Virus record (IMG/VR): IMGVR_UViG_2703718804_000005
Reading direction: 5' to 3' (one strand)
From: a virus
Lineage: Duplodnaviria; Heunggongvirae; Uroviricota; Caudoviricetes
DNA length: 9,161 nt
The notes under the pieces are model-generated. The model did not search any database. It had not been told where the DNA came from and saw nothing but the letters and a program-made list of their open reading frames with translations. Of this stretch, positions 133 to 8,627 are shown piece after piece (position 1 is the first letter of the stretch; each line of letters opens with the position of its first letter). Both the position numbers and the translations under genes were made by a program.

Positions 133-458
133 AAACCTTCCGCTGGAAAGTGAAACCCGGGATGGATGTGACATCGGCTCCTTCCGTCAGGGAGGTGCGC
201 TTTGGTGATGGCTATTCCCAGCGTGCGCCTGCCGGGCTGAACGCTGACCTGAAAACGTACAGCGTGACGCTGTCTGTCTCCCGTGAGGAGGCCACGGCGC
301 TGGAGTCGTTTCTGGCAGAGCACGGAGGCTGGAAGGCCTTTCTGTGGACGCCGCCTTATGGTTACAGGAAGATAAAGGTGACCTGCGCAAAATGGTCGTC
401 GCAGGTCAGTATGCTGCGTGTTGAGTTCAGCGCAGAGTTTAAACAGGTGGTGAACTGA
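129..458 (+). CDS. M: Minor tail protein M (tail tip complex)
   Basis: 109-aa ORF starting MKTFRWKVKPGMDV, same length as lambda gpM and closely resembling it from memory. GGAGG at 118-122 sits 6 nt upstream of the ATG. Stop TGA 456-458 overlaps the L start by 1 nt (TGATG). Confidence 0.9.
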   Translation: MKTFRWKVKPGMDVTSAPSVREVRFGDGYSQRAPAGLNADLKTYSVTLSVSREEATALESFLAEHGGWKAFLWTPPYGYRKIKVTCAKWSSQVSMLRVEFSAEFKQVVN

Positions 459-1156
459 TGCAGGATATCCGGCAGGAAACACTGAATGAATGCACCCGTG
501 CGGAGCAGTCGGCCAGCGTGGTGCTCTGGGAAATCGATCTGACAGAGGTCGGTGGAGAACGTTATTTTTTCTGTAATGAGCAGAACGAAAAAGGTGAGCC
601 GGTCACCTGGCAGGGGCGACAGTATCAGCCGTATCCCATTCAGGGGACGGGATTTGAACTGAACGGCAAGGGCAGTGCTGCCCGTCCGACACTGACGGTC
701 TCTAACCTGTACGGTATGGTCACCGGGATGGCGGAAGATATGCAGAGTCTGGTCGGCGGAACGGTGGTCCGGCGTAAGGTTTACGCCCGTTTTCTGGATG
801 CGGTGAACTTCGTCAACGGAAACAGAGACGCCGATCCGGAGCAGGAGGTGATCAGCCGCTGGCGCATTGAGCAGTGCAGCGAACTGAGCGCGGTGAGTGC
901 CTCCTTTGTACTGTCCACGCCGACGGAAACGGACGGCGCTGTTTTTCCGGGGCGTATCATGCTGGCCAACACCTGCACCTGGACCTATCGCGGTGATGAG
1001 TGCGGTTATCACGGTCCGGCAGTCGCGGATGAATATGACCAGCTGACGTCCGATATCACGAAGGATAAATGCAGCAAATGCCTGAGCGGCTGTAAGTTTC
1101 GCAATAACGTCGGCAACTTTGGCGGCTTCCTTTCCATTAACAAACTTTCGCAGTAA
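458..1156 (+). CDS. L: Minor tail protein L (tail tip complex)
   Basis: 232-aa ORF starting MQDIRQETLNECTRAEQSASVVLWEIDLTEV, same length as lambda gpL. The C-terminal Cys cluster (CTWTYRGDECGYHG...CSKCLSGC) fits the Cys-rich metal-binding tail of gpL. AGGTGG lies just upstream of the ATG; synteny between M and K. Confidence 0.9.
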   Translation: MQDIRQETLNECTRAEQSASVVLWEIDLTEVGGERYFFCNEQNEKGEPVTWQGRQYQPYPIQGTGFELNGKGSAARPTLTVSNLYGMVTGMAEDMQSLVGGTVVRRKVYARFLDAVNFVNGNRDADPEQEVISRWRIEQCSELSAVSASFVLSTPTETDGAVFPGRIMLANTCTWTYRGDECGYHGPAVADEYDQLTSDITKDKCSKCLSGCKFRNNVGNFGGFLSINKLSQ

Positions 1157-1160
1157 ACCC

Positions 1161-1904
1161 ATGACAGAAACAGAATCAGCGATTCTGGCGCACGCCCGGC
1201 GATGTGCGCCAGCGGAGTCGTGCGGCTTCGTGGTGAGAGCGCCGGAGGGGGAAAGATATTTTCCCTGCATGAATATTTCCGGTGAGCCGGAGGGTTATTT
1301 CCGGATGTCGCCGGAAGACTGGCTGCAGGCAGAAATGCAGGGTGAGATTGTGGCGCTGGTCCACAGCCACCCCGGTGGTCTGCCCTGGCTGAGTGAGGCC
1401 GACCGGCGGCTGCAGGTGCAGAGTGATTTGCCGTGGTGGCTGGTCTGCCGGGGGACGATTCATAAGTTCCGCTGTGTGCCGCATCTCACCGGGCGGCGCT
1501 TTGAGCACGGGGTGACGGACTGTTACACGCTGTTCCGGGATGCTTATCATCTGGCGGGGATTGAGATGCCGGATTTTCATCGCGAGGATGACTGGTGGCG
1601 TCACGGTCAGAATCTCTATCTTGACAATATGGAGGCAACGGGTTTTTACCGTGTCGCACTGACAGAGGCGCAGCCGGGCGACGTGCTGCTGTGCAGCTTT
1701 GGTTCATCGGTGCCGAATCATGCTGCCATTTACTGTGGCGACGGCGAGCTGCTGCACCATATTCCTGAACAACTGAGTAAACGAGAGAGGTACACCGACA
1801 AATGGCAGCGACGCACACACTCCCTCTGGCGTCACCGGGCATGGCACGCATCTGCCTTTACGGGGATTTGCAACGATTTGGCCGCCGCATCGACCTTCGT
1901 GTGA
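1161..1904 (+). CDS. K: Tail tip assembly protein K: N-terminal MPN/JAMM-type domain plus C-terminal NlpC/P60-type cysteine peptidase domain
   Basis: ORF in the frame of the 1119..1904 track entry; the first ATG (1161, MTETESAILAHARRC...) lies 4 nt after the L stop. An intact JAMM motif HSHPGGLPWLSEAD (H-x-H-x7-S-x2-D) is present with an upstream Glu in AESCGFV. The C-terminal half has NlpC/P60-like Cys/His context (GVTDCYTLFRDAYH ... NHAAIY ... LHHIP). Alternative starts are TTG 1119 (inside L) and ATG 1305 (preceded by GGAGGG 1289-1294), so the start is uncertain. Confidence 0.85.
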   Translation: MTETESAILAHARRCAPAESCGFVVRAPEGERYFPCMNISGEPEGYFRMSPEDWLQAEMQGEIVALVHSHPGGLPWLSEADRRLQVQSDLPWWLVCRGTIHKFRCVPHLTGRRFEHGVTDCYTLFRDAYHLAGIEMPDFHREDDWWRHGQNLYLDNMEATGFYRVALTEAQPGDVLLCSFGSSVPNHAAIYCGDGELLHHIPEQLSKRERYTDKWQRRTHSLWRHRAWHASAFTGICNDLAAASTFV

Positions 1905-2443
1905 AAACGGGGGCTGAAGCCATCCGGGCGCTGGCCACACAGCTCCCGGCGTTTCGTCAGAAACTGAATGAGGGCTGGTATCAGATACGGATTGCCGGGC
2001 GTGATGCAGGTGAAACCGAATTATCAGCCCGTCTTAATGAGCCGCTGGAAAATGGTGCCGTGATCCACATCGTGCCGCGTCTGGCGGGTGCTAAAAGTGG
2101 CGGTATTTTTCAGGCAGTGCTGGGGGCTGCTGTTATGGCAGTTGCTATATGGATGCCAGGAGTAGGAATTATGGCGAGTAATCTGCTGTTTTCTCTCGGT
2201 GCCAGTATGACGCTTGGCGGTGTTGCACAGATGCTGGCCCCTAAACCCAAAACCCCCCGCACACAGACAACGGATAACGGCAAACAGAACACCTATTTTT
2301 CTTCACTGGATAATATGGTTGCCCAGGGCAATGTCCTGCCCGTTCTGTACGGTGAAATGCGTGTGGGGTCGCGCGTGGTTTCTCAGGAGATCAGCACGGC
2401 AGACGAAGGGGACGGTGGTCAGGTTGTGGTGATTGGTCGCTGA
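1802..2443 (+). CDS. I: Tail tip assembly protein I (ubiquitin-like N-terminal domain, hydrophobic Gly/Ala-rich C-terminal region)
   Basis: 213-aa ORF starting MAATHTLPLASPGMARICLYGDLQRFGRRIDLRVKTGAEAIRAL, lambda gpI-like. An in-frame stop at 1778-1780 makes ATG 1802 the only possible start. GAGAGG at 1785-1790 precedes it. The start overlaps the 3' end of K by 103 nt in a different frame, as is typical for lambdoid K/I. Confidence 0.85.
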   Translation: MAATHTLPLASPGMARICLYGDLQRFGRRIDLRVKTGAEAIRALATQLPAFRQKLNEGWYQIRIAGRDAGETELSARLNEPLENGAVIHIVPRLAGAKSGGIFQAVLGAAVMAVAIWMPGVGIMASNLLFSLGASMTLGGVAQMLAPKPKTPRTQTTDNGKQNTYFSSLDNMVAQGNVLPVLYGEMRVGSRVVSQEISTADEGDGGQVVVIGR

Positions 2444-2461: not shown

Positions 2462-2490
2462 AAACCGCCTGCGGGCGGTTTTATCGTTTA
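2462..2490 (+). terminator. Stem-loop in the I-J intergenic spacer (possible attenuator, terminator or RNA-processing structure)
   Basis: AAACCGCC (2462-2469), loop TGCG, then GGCGGTTT (2474-2481) form a perfect 8-bp inverted repeat followed by a T-rich run (TTTTATCGTTTA). It sits in the 60-nt gap between the I stop and the J start. Confidence 0.35.
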
Positions 2491-2503: not shown

Positions 2504-5500
2504 ATGGGTAAAGGCAGCAGTAAGGGGCATACCCCGCGCGAAGCGAAGGACAACCTGAAGTCCACGCAGCTGCTGAGTGTGATCGATGCCATCAGCGAAG
2601 GGCCGGTTGAAGGTCCGGTGGATGGATTAAAAAGCGTGCTGCTGAACAGTACACCTGTGCTGGACAGTGAGGGGAATACCAATATCTCCGGCGTCACGGT
2701 GGTGTTCCGGGCCGGTGAGCAGGAGCAGACACCGCCGGAGGGGTTTGAATCCTCCGGCTCCGAGACGGTGCTCGGTACGGAAGTGAAATACGACACGCCG
2801 ATCACCCGGACCATCACGTCGGCAAACATCGACCGTCTGCGCTTTACCTTCGGTGTGCAGGCACTGGTGGAAACCACCTCAAAGGGTGACCGGAATCCGT
2901 CGGAAGTCCGCCTGCTGGTTCAGATACAACGTAACGGTGGCTGGGTGACAGAAAAAGACATCACCATTAAGGGCAAAACCACGTCGCAGTATCTGGCCTC
3001 GGTGGTGGTGGATAACCTGCCGCCGCGACCGTTCAATATCCGGATGCGCAGGATGACACCGGACAGCACCACAGACCAGTTGCAGAACAAAACGCTCTGG
3101 TCGTCATACACCGAAATCATCGATGTGAAACAGTGCTACCCGAACACGGCACTGGTCGGCGTGCAGGTGGATTCGGAGCAGTTCGGCAGCCAGCAGGTGA
3201 GCCGTAATTATCATCTTCGCGGGCGCATTCTGCAGGTGCCGTCGAACTATAACCCGCAGACGCGGCAATACAGCGGTATCTGGGACGGGACGTTTAAACC
3301 GGCATACAGCAACAACATGGCCTGGTGTCTGTGGGATATGCTGACCCATCCGCGCTACGGCATGGGGAAGCGTCTCGGTGCGGCGGATGTGGACAAATGG
3401 GCGCTGTATGTCATCGGCCAGAATTGCGACCAGTCGGTGCCGGATGGCTTTGGTGGCACGGAGCCGCGCATCACCTGTAACGCTTACCTGACCACACAGC
3501 GCAAGGCGTGGGATGTGCTCAGTGATTTCTGCTCGGCGATGCGCTGTATGCCGGTATGGAACGGGCAGACGCTGACGTTCGTGCAGGACCGACAGTCGGA
3601 TAAGGTGTGGACCTATAACCGCAGTAATGTGGTGATGCCGGATGATGGCGCGCCGTTCCGCTACAGCTTCAGCGCCCTGAAGGACCGCCATAATGCCGTT
3701 GAGGTGAACTGGATTGACCCGAACAACGGCTGGGAGACGGCGACAGAGCTTGTTGAAGATACGCAGGCCATTGCCCGTTACGGTCGTAATGTCACGAAGA
3801 TGGATGCCTTTGGCTGTACCAGCCGGGGGCAGGCACACCGCGCCGGGCTGTGGCTGATTAAAACGGAACTGCTGGAGACGCAGACCGTGGATTTCAGCGT
3901 GGGTGCTGAAGGGCTTCGCCATGTACCGGGCGATGTCATTGAAATCTGCGATGATGACTATGCCGGTATCAGCACCGGTGGTCGCGTGCTGGCGGTGAAC
4001 AGCCAGACCCGGACGCTGACGCTCGACCGTGAAATCACGCTGCCATCCTCCGGTACCACGCTGATAAGCCTGGTTGACGGAAGTGGTAATCCGGTCAGCG
4101 TGGAGGTTCAGTCCGTCACCGACGGACTTAAGGTGAAAGTGAACCGGGTTCCTGACGGCGTTGCAGAATACAGTGTGTGGGGGCTGAAGTTGCCGACGTT
4201 GCGTCAGCGCCTGTTCCGCTGTGTGAGTATCCGTGAGAACGATGACGGCACGTATGCCATCACTGCCGTGCAGCATGTACCGGAAAAAGAGGCCATCGTG
4301 GATAACGGGGCGCACTTTGACGGCGACCAGAGCGGCACGGTGAATGGTGTCACGCCGCCAGCGGTGCAGCACCTGACCGCCGAAGTCACCGCAGACAGCG
4401 GGGAATATCAGGTGCTGGCGCGCTGGGACACGCCGAAGGTGGTGAAGGGCGTGAGTTTCCTGCTCCGTCTGACCGTAACAGCGGATGACGGCAGTGAGCG
4501 GCTGGTCAGCACGGCCCGGACGACGGAAACCACATACCGCTTCAGGCAACTGACGCTGGGGCGTTACAGGCTGACAGTCCGGGCGGTAAATGCGTGGGGA
4601 CAGCAGGGCGATCCGGCATCGGTATCGTTCCGGATTGCCGCACCGGCAGCGCCGTCGCGGATTGAGCTGACACCGGGGTATTTTCAGATAACTGCCACGC
4701 CGCATCTTGCGGTTTATGACCCGACGGTGCAGTTTGAGTTCTGGTTCTCGGAAAAACGGATTGCGGATATCAGGCAGGTTGAAACCACAGCCCGCTATCT
4801 TGGCACGGCGCTGTACTGGATAGCTGCCAGTATCAATATCAGGCCGGGCCATGATTATTATTTTTACGTTCGCAGTGTGAACACCGTTGGCAAATCGGCA
4901 TTCGTGGAGGCTGTTGGTCAGCCGAGTGATGATGCATCCGGCTATCTGGATTTTTTCAAAGGCGAGATAGGAAAAACCCATCTGGCTCAGGAGCTGTGGA
5001 CGCAGATTGATAACGGTCAGCTGGCGCCTGATCTGGCTGAAATCAGGACGTCCATTACGGATGTCAGCAATGAAATCACACAGACCGTCAATAAGAAACT
5101 GGAAGACCAGAGTGCGGCAATTCAGCAGATACAGAAGGTTCAGGTTGATACAAATAATAACCTGAACAGCATGTGGGCTGTGAAGCTGCAGCAGATGCAG
5201 GACGGACGCCTTTATATCGCGGGTATTGGTGCCGGTATTGAGAACACCCCTGACGGCATGCAGAGTCAGGTGCTGCTGGCGGCGGACAGGATTGCGATGG
5301 TTAATCCTGCGAATGGCAACACAAAACCGATGTTTGTTGGTCAGGGCGATCAGATATTCATGAACGACGTGTTCCTGAAGCGCCTGACGGCCCCCACCAT
5401 TACCAGCGGCGGCAATCCCCCGGCCTTTTCCCTGACACCGGACGGAAAGCTGACGGCGAAAAATGCGGATATCAGTGGCAGTGTGAATGCGAACGCCGGG

Positions 5501-5983
5501 ACGCTCAATAATGTCACGATTAATGAGAACTGTCAGATTCTGGGAAAACTGTCAGCTAATCAGATTGAAGGCGATATTGTTAAAACGGTGGGTAAGGCTT
5601 TCCCCCGTGACTCCCGGGCACCGGAGCGGTGGCCGTCAGGGACCATTACCGTCAGGGTTTATGACGATCAGCCTTTTGACCGGCAAATTGTCATTCCGGC
5701 GGTGGCATTCAGCGGTGCCAGACATGAGAGAGAGCATAATGACATTTATTCATCATGCCGTCTGATAGTGCGGAAAAACGGTGCTGAAATTTATAACCGT
5801 ACCGCGCTGGATAATACGCTGATTTATACAGGTGTGATTGATATGCCAGCGGGTCGCGGTCACATGACGCTGGAGTTTTCGGTATCAGCGTGGCTGGTGA
5901 ATGACTGGTATCCCACGGCAAGCATCAGCGATTTGCTGGTTGTGGTGATGAAGAAATCCACAGCCGGTATCAGTATCAGCTGA
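2504..5983 (+). CDS. J: Central tail fibre / host specificity protein J (tip attachment protein)
   Basis: 1159-aa ORF starting [42 protein letters not shown], lambda gpJ-like in length and sequence character. It carries FN3-like segments around residues 620-800 and a helical Q/N-rich segment ([53 protein letters not shown]). SD-like GGAG/GAGGA lies upstream of ATG 2504; position follows I. Confidence 0.95.
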
Positions 5984-6041: not shown

Positions 6042-8627
6042 ATGGCAGTAAAGATTTCAGGCGTGCTGAAAGACGGTGCAGGTAAACCGGTACAGAACTG
6101 CACCATTCAGCTGAAAGCAAAACGTAACAGTACCACGGTGGTGGTGAACACGGTGGCCTCAGAAAATCCGGATGAAGCCGGGCGTTACAGTATGGACGTT
6201 GAGTACGGCCAGTACGGTGTCATCCTGCTGGTTGACGGTTTTCCGCCTTCACATGCCGGCACCATCACCGTGTATGAAGATTCTGAGCCGGGGACGCTGA
6301 ATGATTTTCTCGGTGCCATGACGGAGGATGATGCCCGTCCGGAGGCACTGCGCCGTTTTGAGCTGATGGTGGAAGAGGTGGCGCGTAACGCGTCCGCAGT
6401 GGCACAGAACACGGCAGCCGCGAAGAAGTCAGCCGGCGATGCCGGAACATCTGCCCGTGAGGCGGCAACCCATGCGACTGATGCTGCGGACTCAGCACGC
6501 GCCGCCAGCACGTCCGCCGGACAGGCTGCGACGTCAGCACAGGAAGCATCTTCCGGCGCAGAAACAGCCTCAGCAAAGGCCGCTGAGGCATCAAAAAGTG
6601 CTGCCGCTGCAGAGTCCTCAAAAAGCGCGGCGGCCACCAGTGCCGGTGCCGCGAAAACGTCAGAAACGAATGCGGCAGCGTCACAACAATCAGCCGCCAC
6701 GTCTGCATCCACCGCGACCTCGAAAGCGTCAGAAGCTGCCACGTCAGCCAGGGATGCGGCGGCCTCAAAAGAGGCGGCAAAATCATCAGAAACGAGCGCA
6801 GCCTCGAGCGCCGGTAGCGCAGCTTCCTCGGCAACGGCGGCAGGAAATTCCGCGAAGGCGGCAAAGACGTCTGAGACGAACGCCAGGTCTTCTGAAACGG
6901 CAGCGGAACAGAGTGCCTCCGCAGCAGCAGGCTCAGAAACTGCCGCTGCATCATCGTCCCGTGAGGCGTCAGTTAAAGCGGAGGAGGCCTCAGCCAGTGC
7001 CACCGCCGCCGGAAAATCGGCAGAAAGTGCCGCATTGTCCGCTTCAGCAGCCACAACGAAGGCTGGCGAAGCCACTGAACAGGCCACTGCAGCAGTGAGG
7101 TCTGCTTCCGCTGCGAGGACATCCGAGACGAACGCGAAAGCGTCGGAAACCCGTGCAGAATCTTCAGAAACGGCTGCCGTATCGTCCGCCAGTTCGGCGG
7201 CGTCATCAGCATCATCGGCGTCAGCTTCAAAAGATGAGGCGGCAAGGCTGGCGTCAGAGGCGCAGGGCAGTGCCACGACGGCATCCGCGAAGGCGACAGA
7301 GGCAGCTGGCAGTGCGACAGCGGCAGCACAGAGCAAAAGCACGGCAGAATCTGCGGCAACGCGCGCCGAGACTGCGGCAAAACGGGCGGAGGATATTGCA
7401 TCTGCCGTGGCGCTTGAGGATGCGAGCACGACGAAAAAGGGGATAGTCCAGCTCAGCAGTGCAACCAACAGTACATCTGAAACACTTGCCGCGACACCAA
7501 AGGCCGTAAAAGCCGCCTGTGAGAATGCTGAGAAACGACTGCAGAAAGATAAGAACGGTGCGGATGTCCCCGACAAAGACACCTTTACGAAAAATATTGG
7601 TGCCTGCCGTGCCTTCGGTGGGGCCGTAAGCACAACGACAGGAGACTGGACGACCGCACAGTTTATCGGGTGGCTGGATTCTCAGGGCGCATTTAACCAC
7701 CCATACTGGATGTGCAAGGGCTCCTGGTCTTACGGTAATAATAAAATCATCACGGATACGGGCTGCGGAAATATTCATCTCGCCGGCGCTGTCATTGAGG
7801 TGATGGGGATAAAGTCAGCGATGACGATCCGCATAACCACACCGACAACATCCAGCGGAAGTGGAACGGCGAATGCGCAGTTTACCTATATTAATCATGG
7901 TGATGGTTATTCCCCTGGCTGGCGTCGTGACTACAACACGAAAAACAAGCCACCGGCCTTTGCGCTGGGAAAAACCGGGGAAACGCTCGCCGATACAGAT
8001 GCCGTCGCCTGGAACCTGGACAGTGGCGCTTATTGTGCACAGGATGGTGGCGCATCATCCTTAATTCTTCATTTTAATACAGGGGAAGGCAGCTGCCCCG
8101 CGGTCCAGTTTCGGGTGAATTACCGGAATGGCGGGATATTTTACCGCTCCGCCCGTGATGGCTATGGCTTTGAGGCGGACTGGGAGCGTCTGTTCACGAC
8201 AACGGGCGGGACCCTGGAAGGTGCTGTGGGTATCGGTGCACAGAATACGCTGGGCGGCCATTCACTTGCGCTGGGGAGGGGCGACACAGGCCTGAAACAA
8301 AACGGCGACGGTAATCTTGATGTTTACGCCGGTAACGCACGTGTAATGCGCTTTACAAACGGCAGCATTCAGGTCAGTAAAGGGCTGAATGTGTCCGGGC
8401 GCGTTAATCCTTCCGATTACAGTAATTTTGATATCCGCTATGTCAGGGATATCCGGCTGGGCACGCGTGTTGTTCAGGGCATGCAAAAAGGCGTGACGTA
8501 TGAGAAATCCGGCCATGTCATTACGGGGCTTTGTCTTGTCGGGGATGCTGATGGCGATAACTCAGCGGTTTACCGGCCGGTGCAAAAATACATAAACGGC
8601 ACATGGTTTAACGTATCGCAGGTATAA
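6042..8627 (+). CDS. stf: Side tail fibre protein (Stf-like): conserved N-terminal tail-attachment region, Ala/Ser/Thr-rich shaft, divergent C-terminal distal domain
   Basis: 861-aa ORF. The N-terminus MAVKISGVLKDGAGKPVQNCTIQLKAKRNSTTVVVNTV...DGFPPSHAGTITVYED is lambda Stf-like from memory. The widely shared fibre junction motif GIVQLSSATNSTSETLAATPKAVK is encoded at 7440-7511. The gene sits downstream of J and is followed by tfa. Confidence 0.9.
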   Translation: MAVKISGVLKDGAGKPVQNCTIQLKAKRNSTTVVVNTVASENPDEAGRYSMDVEYGQYGVILLVDGFPPSHAGTITVYEDSEPGTLNDFLGAMTEDDARPEALRRFELMVEEVARNASAVAQNTAAAKKSAGDAGTSAREAATHATDAADSARAASTSAGQAATSAQEASSGAETASAKAAEASKSAAAAESSKSAAATSAGAAKTSETNAAASQQSAATSASTATSKASEAATSARDAAASKEAAKSSETSAASSAGSAASSATAAGNSAKAAKTSETNARSSETAAEQSASAAAGSETAAASSSREASVKAEEASASATAAGKSAESAALSASAATTKAGEATEQATAAVRSASAARTSETNAKASETRAESSETAAVSSASSAASSASSASASKDEAARLASEAQGSATTASAKATEAAGSATAAAQSKSTAESAATRAETAAKRAEDIASAVALEDASTTKKGIVQLSSATNSTSETLAATPKAVKAACENAEKRLQKDKNGADVPDKDTFTKNIGACRAFGGAVSTTTGDWTTAQFIGWLDSQGAFNHPYWMCKGSWSYGNNKIITDTGCGNIHLAGAVIEVMGIKSAMTIRITTPTTSSGSGTANAQFTYINHGDGYSPGWRRDYNTKNKPPAFALGKTGETLADTDAVAWNLDSGAYCAQDGGASSLILHFNTGEGSCPAVQFRVNYRNGGIFYRSARDGYGFEADWERLFTTTGGTLEGAVGIGAQNTLGGHSLALGRGDTGLKQNGDGNLDVYAGNARVMRFTNGSIQVSKGLNVSGRVNPSDYSNFDIRYVRDIRLGTRVVQGMQKGVTYEKSGHVITGLCLVGDADGDNSAVYRPVQKYINGTWFNVSQV
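6390..7440 (+). repeat. Low-complexity Ala/Ser/Thr-rich degenerate repeat region encoding the stf shaft
   Basis: About 350 codons dominated by GCN/TCN/ACN/GAR codons. The unit (A)-K/R-T-S-E-T-N-A recurs at 6651-6680, 6861-6887 and 7113-7136, spaced 210 and 252 nt apart (70 and 84 codons, both multiples of 7). The region is free of stops in all three forward frames and on the antisense strand. Confidence 0.6.

What the first reader, a model, noticed from the sequence alone, without database searches (positions are those of the whole stretch)
1161..1904. K is a two-domain enzyme-like protein with an intact JAMM motif; the true start codon is ambiguous
The sequence shows a perfect H-x-H-x7-S-x2-D JAMM signature (HSHPGGLPWLSEAD) and a downstream NlpC/P60-like Cys/His set. 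The classic lambda annotation gives gpK as 199 aa (from memory), which corresponds here to the internal ATG at 1305 (MSPEDW..., preceded by GGAGGG). The frame is open back to ATG 1161, 4 nt after the L stop, giving 247 aa. Only the longer form contains the N-terminal strand with the conserved Glu (AESCGFV) that a complete MPN/JAMM fold needs, and it closes the otherwise unexplained L-K gap. Both forms could be made. The target of the putative peptidase activities during tail assembly is, as far as I know, not well defined.
Basis: partly seen in the sequence, partly recalled or inferred. Interest (0 to 1): 0.4.

Follow-up and report, generated by a model that had tools for sequence, protein, structure and literature searches.

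The report
Lambda-type tail-assembly peptidase K, full-length form
This is the ordinary, already-described tail-assembly protease K of a lambda-like E. coli prophage; its real start is the upstream ATG (247 aa), and the classic 199-aa lambda form comes from one missing G in the 1982 reference sequence.

Summary
Window 1161-1904 is an open 247-codon frame that starts 4 nt after the L stop. It encodes an N-terminal JAMM/MPN domain (E19, H68-S-H70, S78, D81) and a C-terminal NlpC/P60 domain (C121, H187, H199).

The start is not really ambiguous:
- RefSeq already calls this exact sequence as 247 aa.
- 102 of 103 distant homologues align from residue 20 or earlier.
- E19, C21, G22, N38 and F47 are 95-100% conserved.
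- Codons 2-48 are under purifying selection.
- The internal Met49 is Ile, Leu or Val in most homologues.

New here: the 199-aa lambda annotation is not a choice of start codon. J02459/NC_001416 lacks a G after nt 14266, which puts the upstream ATG out of frame. Five resequenced lambda records, ten contaminant lambda contigs and a published lambda-gt10 variant table all carry the G. Lambda K is therefore also 247 aa.

[quoted passage not shown] A 2025 meeting report says gpK cleaves that domain. The finding is already known and of low interest, apart from the reference-sequence correction.

The parts
458..1156 (+). Gene L (tail tip protein L, 232 aa). Its TAA stop at 1154-1156 lies 4 nt before the K start.
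   Evidence: ORF list. Pfam Phage_tail_L, 328.6 bits.
1161..1904 (+). Gene K, full-length CDS (247 aa plus stop). There is no Shine-Dalgarno sequence, so K is probably translated by coupling to L.
   Evidence: PGAP calls the same 744 nt in the identical E. coli prophage, WP_000140697.1. Homologues align from the N-terminus.
1170..1472 (+). JAMM/MPN (Prok-JAB) metalloprotease domain, residues 4-104.
   Evidence: Pfam PF14464, 52.7 bits. AF2 model with pLDDT 96.5. Foldseek hits to 2kks, PfJAMM1 (5ld9/5lda), AMSH, Sst2 and CSN5.
1215..1217 (+). Codon for E19, the Glu of the E-x(n)-H-S-H-x7-S-x2-D motif. It is present only in the long form.
   Evidence: 99% conserved in 104 sequences and invariant in 27 loci. 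Aligns with the Glu of NEACG in PDB 2kks.
1362..1403 (+). JAMM signature HSHPGGLPWLSEAD (H68, S69, H70, S78, D81).
   Evidence: Read from the sequence. H68, H70 and D81 are invariant; S69 and S78 are at least 90% conserved in 129 sequences.
1289..1307 (+). Internal GGAGGG (1289-1294) plus ATG (1305-1307, Met49). This is the start of the historical 199-aa form and is not a conserved initiation site. Position 1295 corresponds to the G missing from the lambda reference after nt 14266.
1491..1832 (+). NlpC/P60 (C40) cysteine-peptidase domain, residues 111-224. Catalytic candidates are C121 (1521-1523), H187 (1719-1721) and H199 (1755-1757).
   Evidence: Pfam PF00877, 51 bits. C121, H187 and H199 are 99% conserved. 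Foldseek hits to MepS/Spr, LytE and other NlpC/P60 structures.
1802..2443 (+). Gene I (213 aa), the likely substrate. It has an N-terminal ubiquitin-like domain (residues 14-97, ending VPRLAG96-AKSGG101), then a hydrophobic linker and a C-terminal tip-plug domain. It overlaps the K 3' end by 103 nt in the -1 frame.
   Evidence: Pfam Lambda_tail_I, 87.3 bits. The overlap is conserved across clades. Literature: PMC1779556, PMC10721106, PMC12908700.

Best explanation
Window 1161-1904 encodes the full-length (247-aa) homologue of phage lambda tail-tip assembly protein K, in a lambdoid E. coli prophage tail cluster (M-L-K-I-J).

Translation starts at ATG 1161, 4 nt after the L stop, probably by termination-reinitiation coupling because there is no SD sequence.

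The protein is a fused two-peptidase enzyme:
- An N-terminal JAMM/MPN+ zinc metalloprotease. H68, H70 and D81 would bind Zn. E19 would be the general base and S78 would stabilise the intermediate.
- A C-terminal NlpC/P60 papain-like cysteine peptidase (C121, H187, H199).

It acts as a non-virion assembly factor. The JAB domain removes the N-terminal ubiquitin-like domain from the product of the overlapping downstream gene I once gpI has joined the tip complex. Only the C-terminal plug domain of gpI remains in the tail.

Basis of each step:
- Shown here: the gene structure, domains, conservation and start site.
- Taken from the literature: the substrate and timing (a prediction from 2006 and a meeting report from 2025).
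- Open: the role of the NlpC/P60 domain.

The 199-aa 'classic' gpK is an artefact of a G missing after nt 14266 in J02459/NC_001416.
For: Domains: Pfam hits over the curated cut-offs.

Conserved motif residues:
- In 129 homologues H68, H70, D81, D120 and N38 are invariant. E19, C21, G22, F47, S69, S78, C121, H187, H199 and H200 are at least 90% conserved.

Start site:
- The identical sequence is annotated as 744 nt by PGAP. Phage 21, 569R4 and resequenced lambda PV340536 are annotated the same way.
- 102 of 103 representatives at 62% identity or less align from query residue 20 or earlier. None align from residue 45 or later.
- dN/dS for codons 2-48 is 0.30-0.47 pooled, against 0.23-0.24 for the rest.
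- The K start is always within -1 to +14 nt of the L stop. It is an overlapping TGATG in the divergent clade.
- Met49 is Ile in 68, Leu in 14, Val in 6 and Met in 13 of 104 aligned sequences.

Structure:
- The AF2 model built on the alignment has pLDDT 96.5 and pTM 0.90.
- Residues 1-48 form helix 3-15 and strands 21-27 and 30-36 of the MPN domain.
- Foldseek matches JAMM deubiquitinase-type structures, including PfJAMM1 bound to the Ub-like SAMP2, and NlpC/P60 enzymes.

Lambda reference error:
- The reference reads GGAGGC-TAT and has a TGA 7 codons upstream of the K ATG.
- Five resequenced lambda records and ten lambda contigs in unrelated assemblies have the extra G and an intact 247-aa ORF.
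- The MutaMouse lambda-gt10 variant table lists 14266 C>CG.

Function:
- PMC1779556 predicts that the JAB domain of TAPK releases the Ub-like domain of TAPI.
- PMC12908700 reports that gpK cleaves the Ub-like domain of gpI after gpI joins the tip complex.
- By mass spectrometry the virion lacks gpK, and only gpI residues 135-223 are resolved.
Against: - No experimental N-terminus or initiation-site mapping of K was found.
- ATG 1161 has no SD, whereas the internal ATG has a good GGAGG 11 nt upstream. Some internal initiation in the E. coli lambda clade therefore cannot be excluded.
- Codons 2-48 are somewhat less constrained than the rest.
- The gpK-cleaves-gpI result is known to me only from a conference summary, not a paper with data.
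- Two records (OR974322, OR474059) reproduce the reference without the G. They may be reference-guided assemblies.
- The role of the NlpC/P60 domain is unknown.
Confidence: 0.88

Rival explanations
1. Two isoforms are made: the 247-aa JAB+NlpC/P60 enzyme, and a 199-aa product from ATG 1305 that has only half a JAB domain. The short form would have its own (for example regulatory, or NlpC/P60-only) role.
For: GGAGGG lies 11 nt upstream of ATG 1305, while ATG 1161 has no SD. Gene callers often pick the internal start: 199-aa clusters hold about 11,000 member sequences even where the upstream frame is open.
Against: - Met49 is not conserved: Met in 13 of 104 sequences, and CTG or ATC even in close relatives L030 and L035.
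- GGAGG is kept where there is no ATG, because it encodes Glu-Pro-Glu. It is absent where ATG is kept in Citrobacter.
- The truncated JAB falls below the Pfam cut-off and would lack helix 1, strands 1-2 and the catalytic Glu.
Confidence: 0.08
2. Only the 199-aa form (ATG 1305) is the real gene, as in the classic lambda annotation. The upstream 144 nt would be non-coding or a separate small ORF.
For: The annotation of J02459/NC_001416 and of some derivative records such as DE3 and lambda imm434.
Against: - That annotation rests on a reference sequence missing one G.
- The records that keep 199 aa (DE3, imm434) do have the open 247-codon frame.
- There is strong amino-acid conservation and purifying selection upstream of Met49.
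Confidence: 0.02
3. Translation starts further upstream at TTG 1119 (261 aa), overlapping the end of L.
For: The frame is open back to 1086, and TTG 1119 is the first start codon in it.
Against: In lambda and many relatives the L-K spacer is 5 nt instead of 4. The upstream frame is then closed 21 nt before the ATG, with no start codon in it. Homologues begin at the residue aligned with M1.
Confidence: 0.01

Closest known systems
Phage lambda gpK / TAPK (tail tip assembly protein K). RefSeq NP_040598 is the 199-aa form; the corrected 247-aa form is XSB40720.1 in PV340536.
   Same: 93.5% amino-acid identity over all 247 residues to resequenced lambda K. Same M-L-K-I-J synteny, same JAB+NlpC/P60 architecture and the same 103-nt overlap with I.
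   Different: Only a few substitutions. The window is an E. coli prophage allele (100% identical to strains ARS-C301 and D217-5), not lambda itself. The L-K spacer is 4 nt rather than 5.
Archaeal and prokaryotic stand-alone JAMM/MPN+ proteases that process ubiquitin-like proteins: PfJAMM1 (PDB 5ld9/5lda with SAMP2), the haloarchaeal desampylase, and DSY2949 (PDB 2kks).
   Same: Same E...HSH-x7-S-x2-D motif and the same compact MPN fold. Foldseek TM(target) is 0.57-0.67 at rmsd 2.7-3.6. phmmer to 2kks gives E=1.5e-5 over residues 7-105. The substrate is a beta-grasp Ub-like domain ending in Gly.
   Different: K is fused to an NlpC/P60 domain. It scores far below the desampylase family cut-off (28 against 130 bits). 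It would cut a linear peptide bond inside gpI, not an isopeptide conjugate (inference).
NlpC/P60 (C40) peptidases such as E. coli MepS/Spr and B. subtilis LytE.
   Same: Pfam PF00877 across its full length, a conserved Cys-His-His set, and Foldseek matches at rmsd about 2.7-3.5.
   Different: K has no signal peptide or lipobox context. It is a cytoplasmic assembly factor absent from virions (PMC10721106), so cell-wall hydrolysis is unlikely. Its substrate is unknown.

Membership tests
JAMM/MPN+ metalloproteases (Pfam Prok-JAB PF14464) | Profile match above the curated gathering score | tested here: met
   52.7 bits against a cut-off of 25, covering profile positions 4-112 of 114, for the 247-aa form. 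The 199-aa form scores 23.3 bits, below the cut-off.
JAMM/MPN+ metalloproteases (Pfam Prok-JAB PF14464) | Complete E-x(n)-H-S/T-H-x7-S-x2-D motif | tested here: met
   E19, H68, S69, H70, S78 and D81 are present and 93-100% conserved in homologues.
JAMM/MPN+ metalloproteases (Pfam Prok-JAB PF14464) | MPN fold | tested here: met
   High-confidence AF2 model (pLDDT 96.5). Foldseek hits to PfJAMM1, AMSH, Sst2 and CSN5. This rests on a predicted structure, not a solved one.
JAMM/MPN+ metalloproteases (Pfam Prok-JAB PF14464) | Zinc binding and peptidase or isopeptidase activity | not testable with these tools
   The only support is a meeting report that gpK cleaves gpI (PMC12908700).
NlpC/P60 (peptidase family C40, PF00877) | Profile match above the gathering score | tested here: met
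   51 bits against a cut-off of 23, covering profile positions 1-105 of 105.
NlpC/P60 (peptidase family C40, PF00877) | Catalytic Cys plus His plus a third polar residue (His) | tested here: met
   C121, H187 and H199 are each 99% conserved in 104 sequences.
NlpC/P60 (peptidase family C40, PF00877) | Hydrolytic activity and substrate | not testable with these tools
   No data found.
Lambda gpK / TAPK tail-tip assembly proteins | Position between L and I in an M-L-K-I-J tail-tip cluster, next to a Ub-like I protein | tested here: met
   Pfam hits for Phage_min_tail, Phage_tail_L and Lambda_tail_I on the flanking ORFs. The gene order matches lambda.
Lambda gpK / TAPK tail-tip assembly proteins | Close sequence identity to lambda K over the full length | tested here: met
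   93.5% over residues 1-247 against resequenced lambda.
Lambda gpK / TAPK tail-tip assembly proteins | Required for tail assembly but absent from the virion | not testable with these tools
   Literature only: PMC10721106 and PMC12617516.

The most novel reading that the evidence does not exclude
In the E. coli lambda clade the internal GGAGG-ATG (1289-1307) is a real second initiation site. It would yield a 199-aa NlpC/P60-only isoform with a crippled JAB domain, which modulates or times gpI processing alongside the 247-aa enzyme.
Probability: 0.07. Interest if true: 0.4.

Novelty: already known. Interest (0 to 1): 0.2.

Why it matters
Biologically this is a textbook-family protein. Its architecture (2003, 2006) and its likely substrate (2006 prediction, 2025 report) are already described.

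The practical value is a correction. The lambda reference genome (J02459/NC_001416) still carries a 1-nt error that truncates gpK to 199 aa. That removes helix 1, two strands and the catalytic Glu of the JAB domain. Recent work still uses the truncated entry:
- HHpred analysis on '199 residues in total' (PMC7291167).
- A trigger screen citing NP_040598.1 (PMC12236752).

Constructs or models built from the truncated entry would lack an intact JAB domain. About 18% of the automatic gene calls for close relatives listed repeat the short form.

Tried and rejected
- Single-sequence AF2 gave a useless model (pLDDT 35). It was replaced by the alignment-based model.
- I looked for a paper stating the K start or the lambda sequence error. 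Only the MutaMouse variant table lists 14266 C>CG, and it does not interpret it.
- Casjens & Hendrix 2015 and the 2013 lambda ribosome-profiling paper are not held. I cannot say whether they already note the error.
- I considered that the reference frameshift is real and bypassed by -1 frameshifting. By eye there is no X XXY YYZ slippery heptamer at the junction, and every independent resequencing has the G, so I rejected this.
- I considered a programmed K-I fusion, since I is in the -1 frame and K-I fusion proteins exist in the databases. Those fusions are clusters of 1-2 member sequences, and no slippery site is visible in 1802-1901, so they are probably sequencing errors or pseudogenes.
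- TTG 1119 as the start was rejected because it is not in frame in lambda-type sequences.

Full report
**What is there**

The window is the tail-tip gene block of a lambdoid E. coli prophage:
- M: 129-458
- L: 458-1156
- K: 1161-1904
- I: 1802-2443
- J: 2504-5983
- a side-fibre gene and its chaperone

The K region is 100% identical to chromosomal prophages of E. coli ARS-C301 and D217-5. It is 95-97% identical to several lambda-like phages.

- The L stop (TAA) is at 1154-1156 and the K ATG is at 1161.
- The frame is open for 247 codons.
- The internal ATG is at 1305, preceded by GGAGGG at 1289-1294.
- The JAMM signature is HSHPGGLPWLSEAD (H68...D81).
- E19 lies in AESCGFV.

Pfam places Prok-JAB on residues 4-104 (52.7 bits, cut-off 25) and NLPC_P60 on residues 111-224 (51 bits, cut-off 23). 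The 199-aa form keeps only profile positions 63-112 of 114 for JAB and drops below the cut-off, at 23.3 bits.

**Which start is real**

The comparative evidence is one-sided.

*Annotation.* PGAP annotates the identical sequence as 744 nt starting 4 nt after L (WP_000140697.1). Phage 21, vB_EcoS-569R4 and a resequenced lambda are annotated the same way.

*Distant homologues.* A full HMMER scan of 1.84 billion cluster representatives found 2859 relatives.
- Of 103 full-length representatives at 62% identity or less, 102 align from query residue 20 or earlier. None align from residue 45 or later.
- The N-terminal 48 residues hold some of the most conserved positions of the family: H11 84%, A12 82%, P17 90%, E19 99%, C21 95%, G22 100%, N38 100%, F47 97%.

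*Selection.* In codon alignments of 27 loci, codons 2-48 evolve under purifying selection. Pooled pN/pS is 0.47 in the lambda-like clade and 0.30 in a clade about 48% identical to it. The rest of the gene gives 0.23-0.24.

*Position relative to L.* The K start always sits within -1 to +14 nt of the L stop. It is an overlapping TGATG in the divergent clade.

*The internal start is not conserved.*
- The residue aligned with Met49 is Ile in 68, Leu in 14, Val in 6 and Met in only 13 of 104 sequences.
- It is CTG or ATC in two close relatives that keep the GGAGG (L030, L035).
- The Citrobacter alleles that keep ATG have no GGAGG.
- GGAGG is simply the coding sequence for Glu-Pro-Glu.

*Other candidates.* The TTG at 1119 is not in frame in lambda-type sequences.

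*Why 199-aa calls exist.* Protein clusters of 199 aa are common in automatic annotations: about 11,000 member sequences, against about 51,000 in 247-aa clusters among the listed close relatives. One checked example has the open 247-codon frame. In that case the short call reflects the gene caller's choice of start, not a truncated gene.

**Why lambda says 199 aa**

In J02459/NC_001416 the upstream ATG exists 5 nt after the L stop, but it is out of frame with K.
- The reference reads GAGCCGGAGGC-TATTTCCGTATG, where relatives have one more base.
- This places a TGA seven codons upstream of the K ATG.
- It turns the upstream ORF into a 76-aa dead end.

Independent evidence that the G is present in real lambda:
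- Five independently deposited lambda or lambda-derivative sequences read GGAGGCGTAT and have an intact 247-aa ORF. They are PV340536, OM418626 (imm434), EU078592 (DE3 from BL21(DE3)), KT232076 and LC730321.
- Ten contigs of contaminating lambda DNA in genome assemblies of unrelated bacteria carry a K gene identical to resequenced lambda, including the G.
- A published variant table for the lambda-gt10 transgene of MutaMouse lists '14266 C>CG' in all copies, without comment (PMC6760142).

Only OR974322 and OR474059 reproduce the reference. They may be reference-guided assemblies.

The most economical reading is a one-base error in the 1982 sequence. The GGCG context would suit a gel compression, but that is my inference. 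The 148-nt 'L-K gap' and the 199-aa gpK are its consequences. I found no paper that says so, but two key reviews were not available to me.

**Structure**

With a 129-sequence alignment, AlphaFold2 gives a confident two-domain model (mean pLDDT 96.5, pTM 0.90).
- Residues 1-48 form helix 3-15 and strands 21-27 and 30-36, at pLDDT 97-98. They are an integral part of the MPN domain, and E19 sits just before the first strand.
- Foldseek against the PDB returns JAMM-type enzymes for the N-terminal half: DSY2949 (2kks), Pyrococcus JAMM1 alone and bound to the Ub-like SAMP2 (5ld9/5lda), AMSH, Sst2 and CSN5.
- It returns NlpC/P60 enzymes for the C-terminal half: MepS/Spr, LytE and others.
- The only sequence-level PDB hit, 2kks, aligns with residues 7-105 and matches the ESCG Glu.
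- NCBIfam gives a weak hit to the haloarchaeal desampylase model over residues 3-103, well below its cut-off and only for the long form.

**How it works**

*Shown here.* K is a fused JAMM metalloprotease and NlpC/P60 cysteine peptidase, with both catalytic residue sets intact and conserved. It is encoded immediately after L. Its 3' end overlaps gene I in the -1 frame, by 103 nt in the lambda clade and 58-73 nt where an ATG start is visible in the divergent clade. Gene I encodes an N-terminal Ub-like domain (Pfam Lambda_tail_I, residues 14-97). That domain ends in a conserved VPxxxG motif: VPRLAG96, then AKSGG101, in the window; VPIVEG in the divergent clade.

*From the literature.*
- Lambda K was listed as a JAMM protein in 2003 (PMC300881).
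- Iyer, Burroughs and Aravind (2006) described TAPK as JAB+NlpC/P60. They predicted that it releases the Ub-like domain of TAPI at its C-terminal Gly (PMC1779556).
- Cryo-EM and mass spectrometry find no gpK in virions, and only gpI residues 135-223 are resolved, as a plug (PMC10721106).
- A 2025 meeting summary reports that Davidson's group showed gpK cleaves the Ub-like domain off gpI, and only after gpI has engaged the tip complex (PMC12908700).

*Inferred.* K is translated at a low level by coupling to L. The role of the NlpC/P60 domain remains unknown.

**Verdict**

It is wrong that the start is ambiguous or that both forms are likely, and it is outdated on the target. The feature is an already-known protein family with an already-standard annotation for this exact sequence. 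The only added value is the documented explanation of the lambda 199-aa annotation as a reference-sequence error. Interest is low.

Noticed in passing
L001/L002 position 1267-1268 (lambda nt 14266/14267); equivalent to window 1295: The lambda reference genome J02459/NC_001416 lacks a G that is present in all independently resequenced lambda DNA. This splits K into a 76-aa dead-end ORF and the 199-aa 'K'. RefSeq still annotates 199 aa.
   Followed up: yes
L013, L015-L017, L020-L025 and others (genome-contig hits): Genome assemblies of unrelated bacteria contain low-coverage contigs with a K gene identical to lambda. The organisms include Neobacillus, Shewanella, Chromatium, Bradyrhizobium, Paenibacillus, Leeuwenhoekiella and Pseudomonas. 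Several contigs are about 48.4-48.5 kb. This is most likely contaminating lambda control DNA. The record 'Campylobacter phage CJLB-4' (MW057783, 48,361 bp) also matches lambda at 99.7% over the 341-nt query (end of L and start of K).
   Followed up: partly
window 1802-1904 (K/I overlap): The start of gene I is annotated inconsistently: ATG 1802 (lambda, phage 21), TTG 1868 (569R4), or GTG 1901 (PGAP, PV340536). The Pfam Ub-like domain begins at residue 14 of the 1802 ORF, so the later starts would truncate it. The K/I overlap in the -1 frame is seen in both the lambda clade and the divergent clade. K residues 227-247, which lie over it, are absent from most distant homologues.
   Followed up: partly
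proteins P0015, P0028, P0100, P0066, P0078 (K-I) and P0006, P0025, P0036, P0043 (L-K); phrog_28576 and phrog_7305: Fused L-K and K-I proteins occur in the databases. Most are clusters of 1-2 member sequences (P0025 has 11), so they are probably frameshift errors or pseudogenes. One PHROG family of 76 aa matches K residues 1-76. Its length equals the dead-end ORF created by the lambda reference error.
   Followed up: no
window 2463-2489: A GC-rich hairpin (ACCGCC...GGCGGT) followed by a T run lies between I and J. It is at the place where the phage 21 record annotates a terminator.
   Followed up: no
window 6042-8627: The side-tail-fibre-like ORF (861 aa) has a long Ala/Ser/Thr/Glu-rich low-complexity repeat region, roughly residues 110-470. 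This region also produces long spurious ORFs on the opposite strand and in other frames.
   Followed up: no
window 980-1110 (L C-terminus): L ends with a cluster of six Cys residues (CTWTYRGDEC...CSKCLSGC). It lies in the C-terminal domain where a review (PMC7291167) reports a 4Fe-4S cluster in lambda gpL. It sits immediately upstream of the K start.
   Followed up: no
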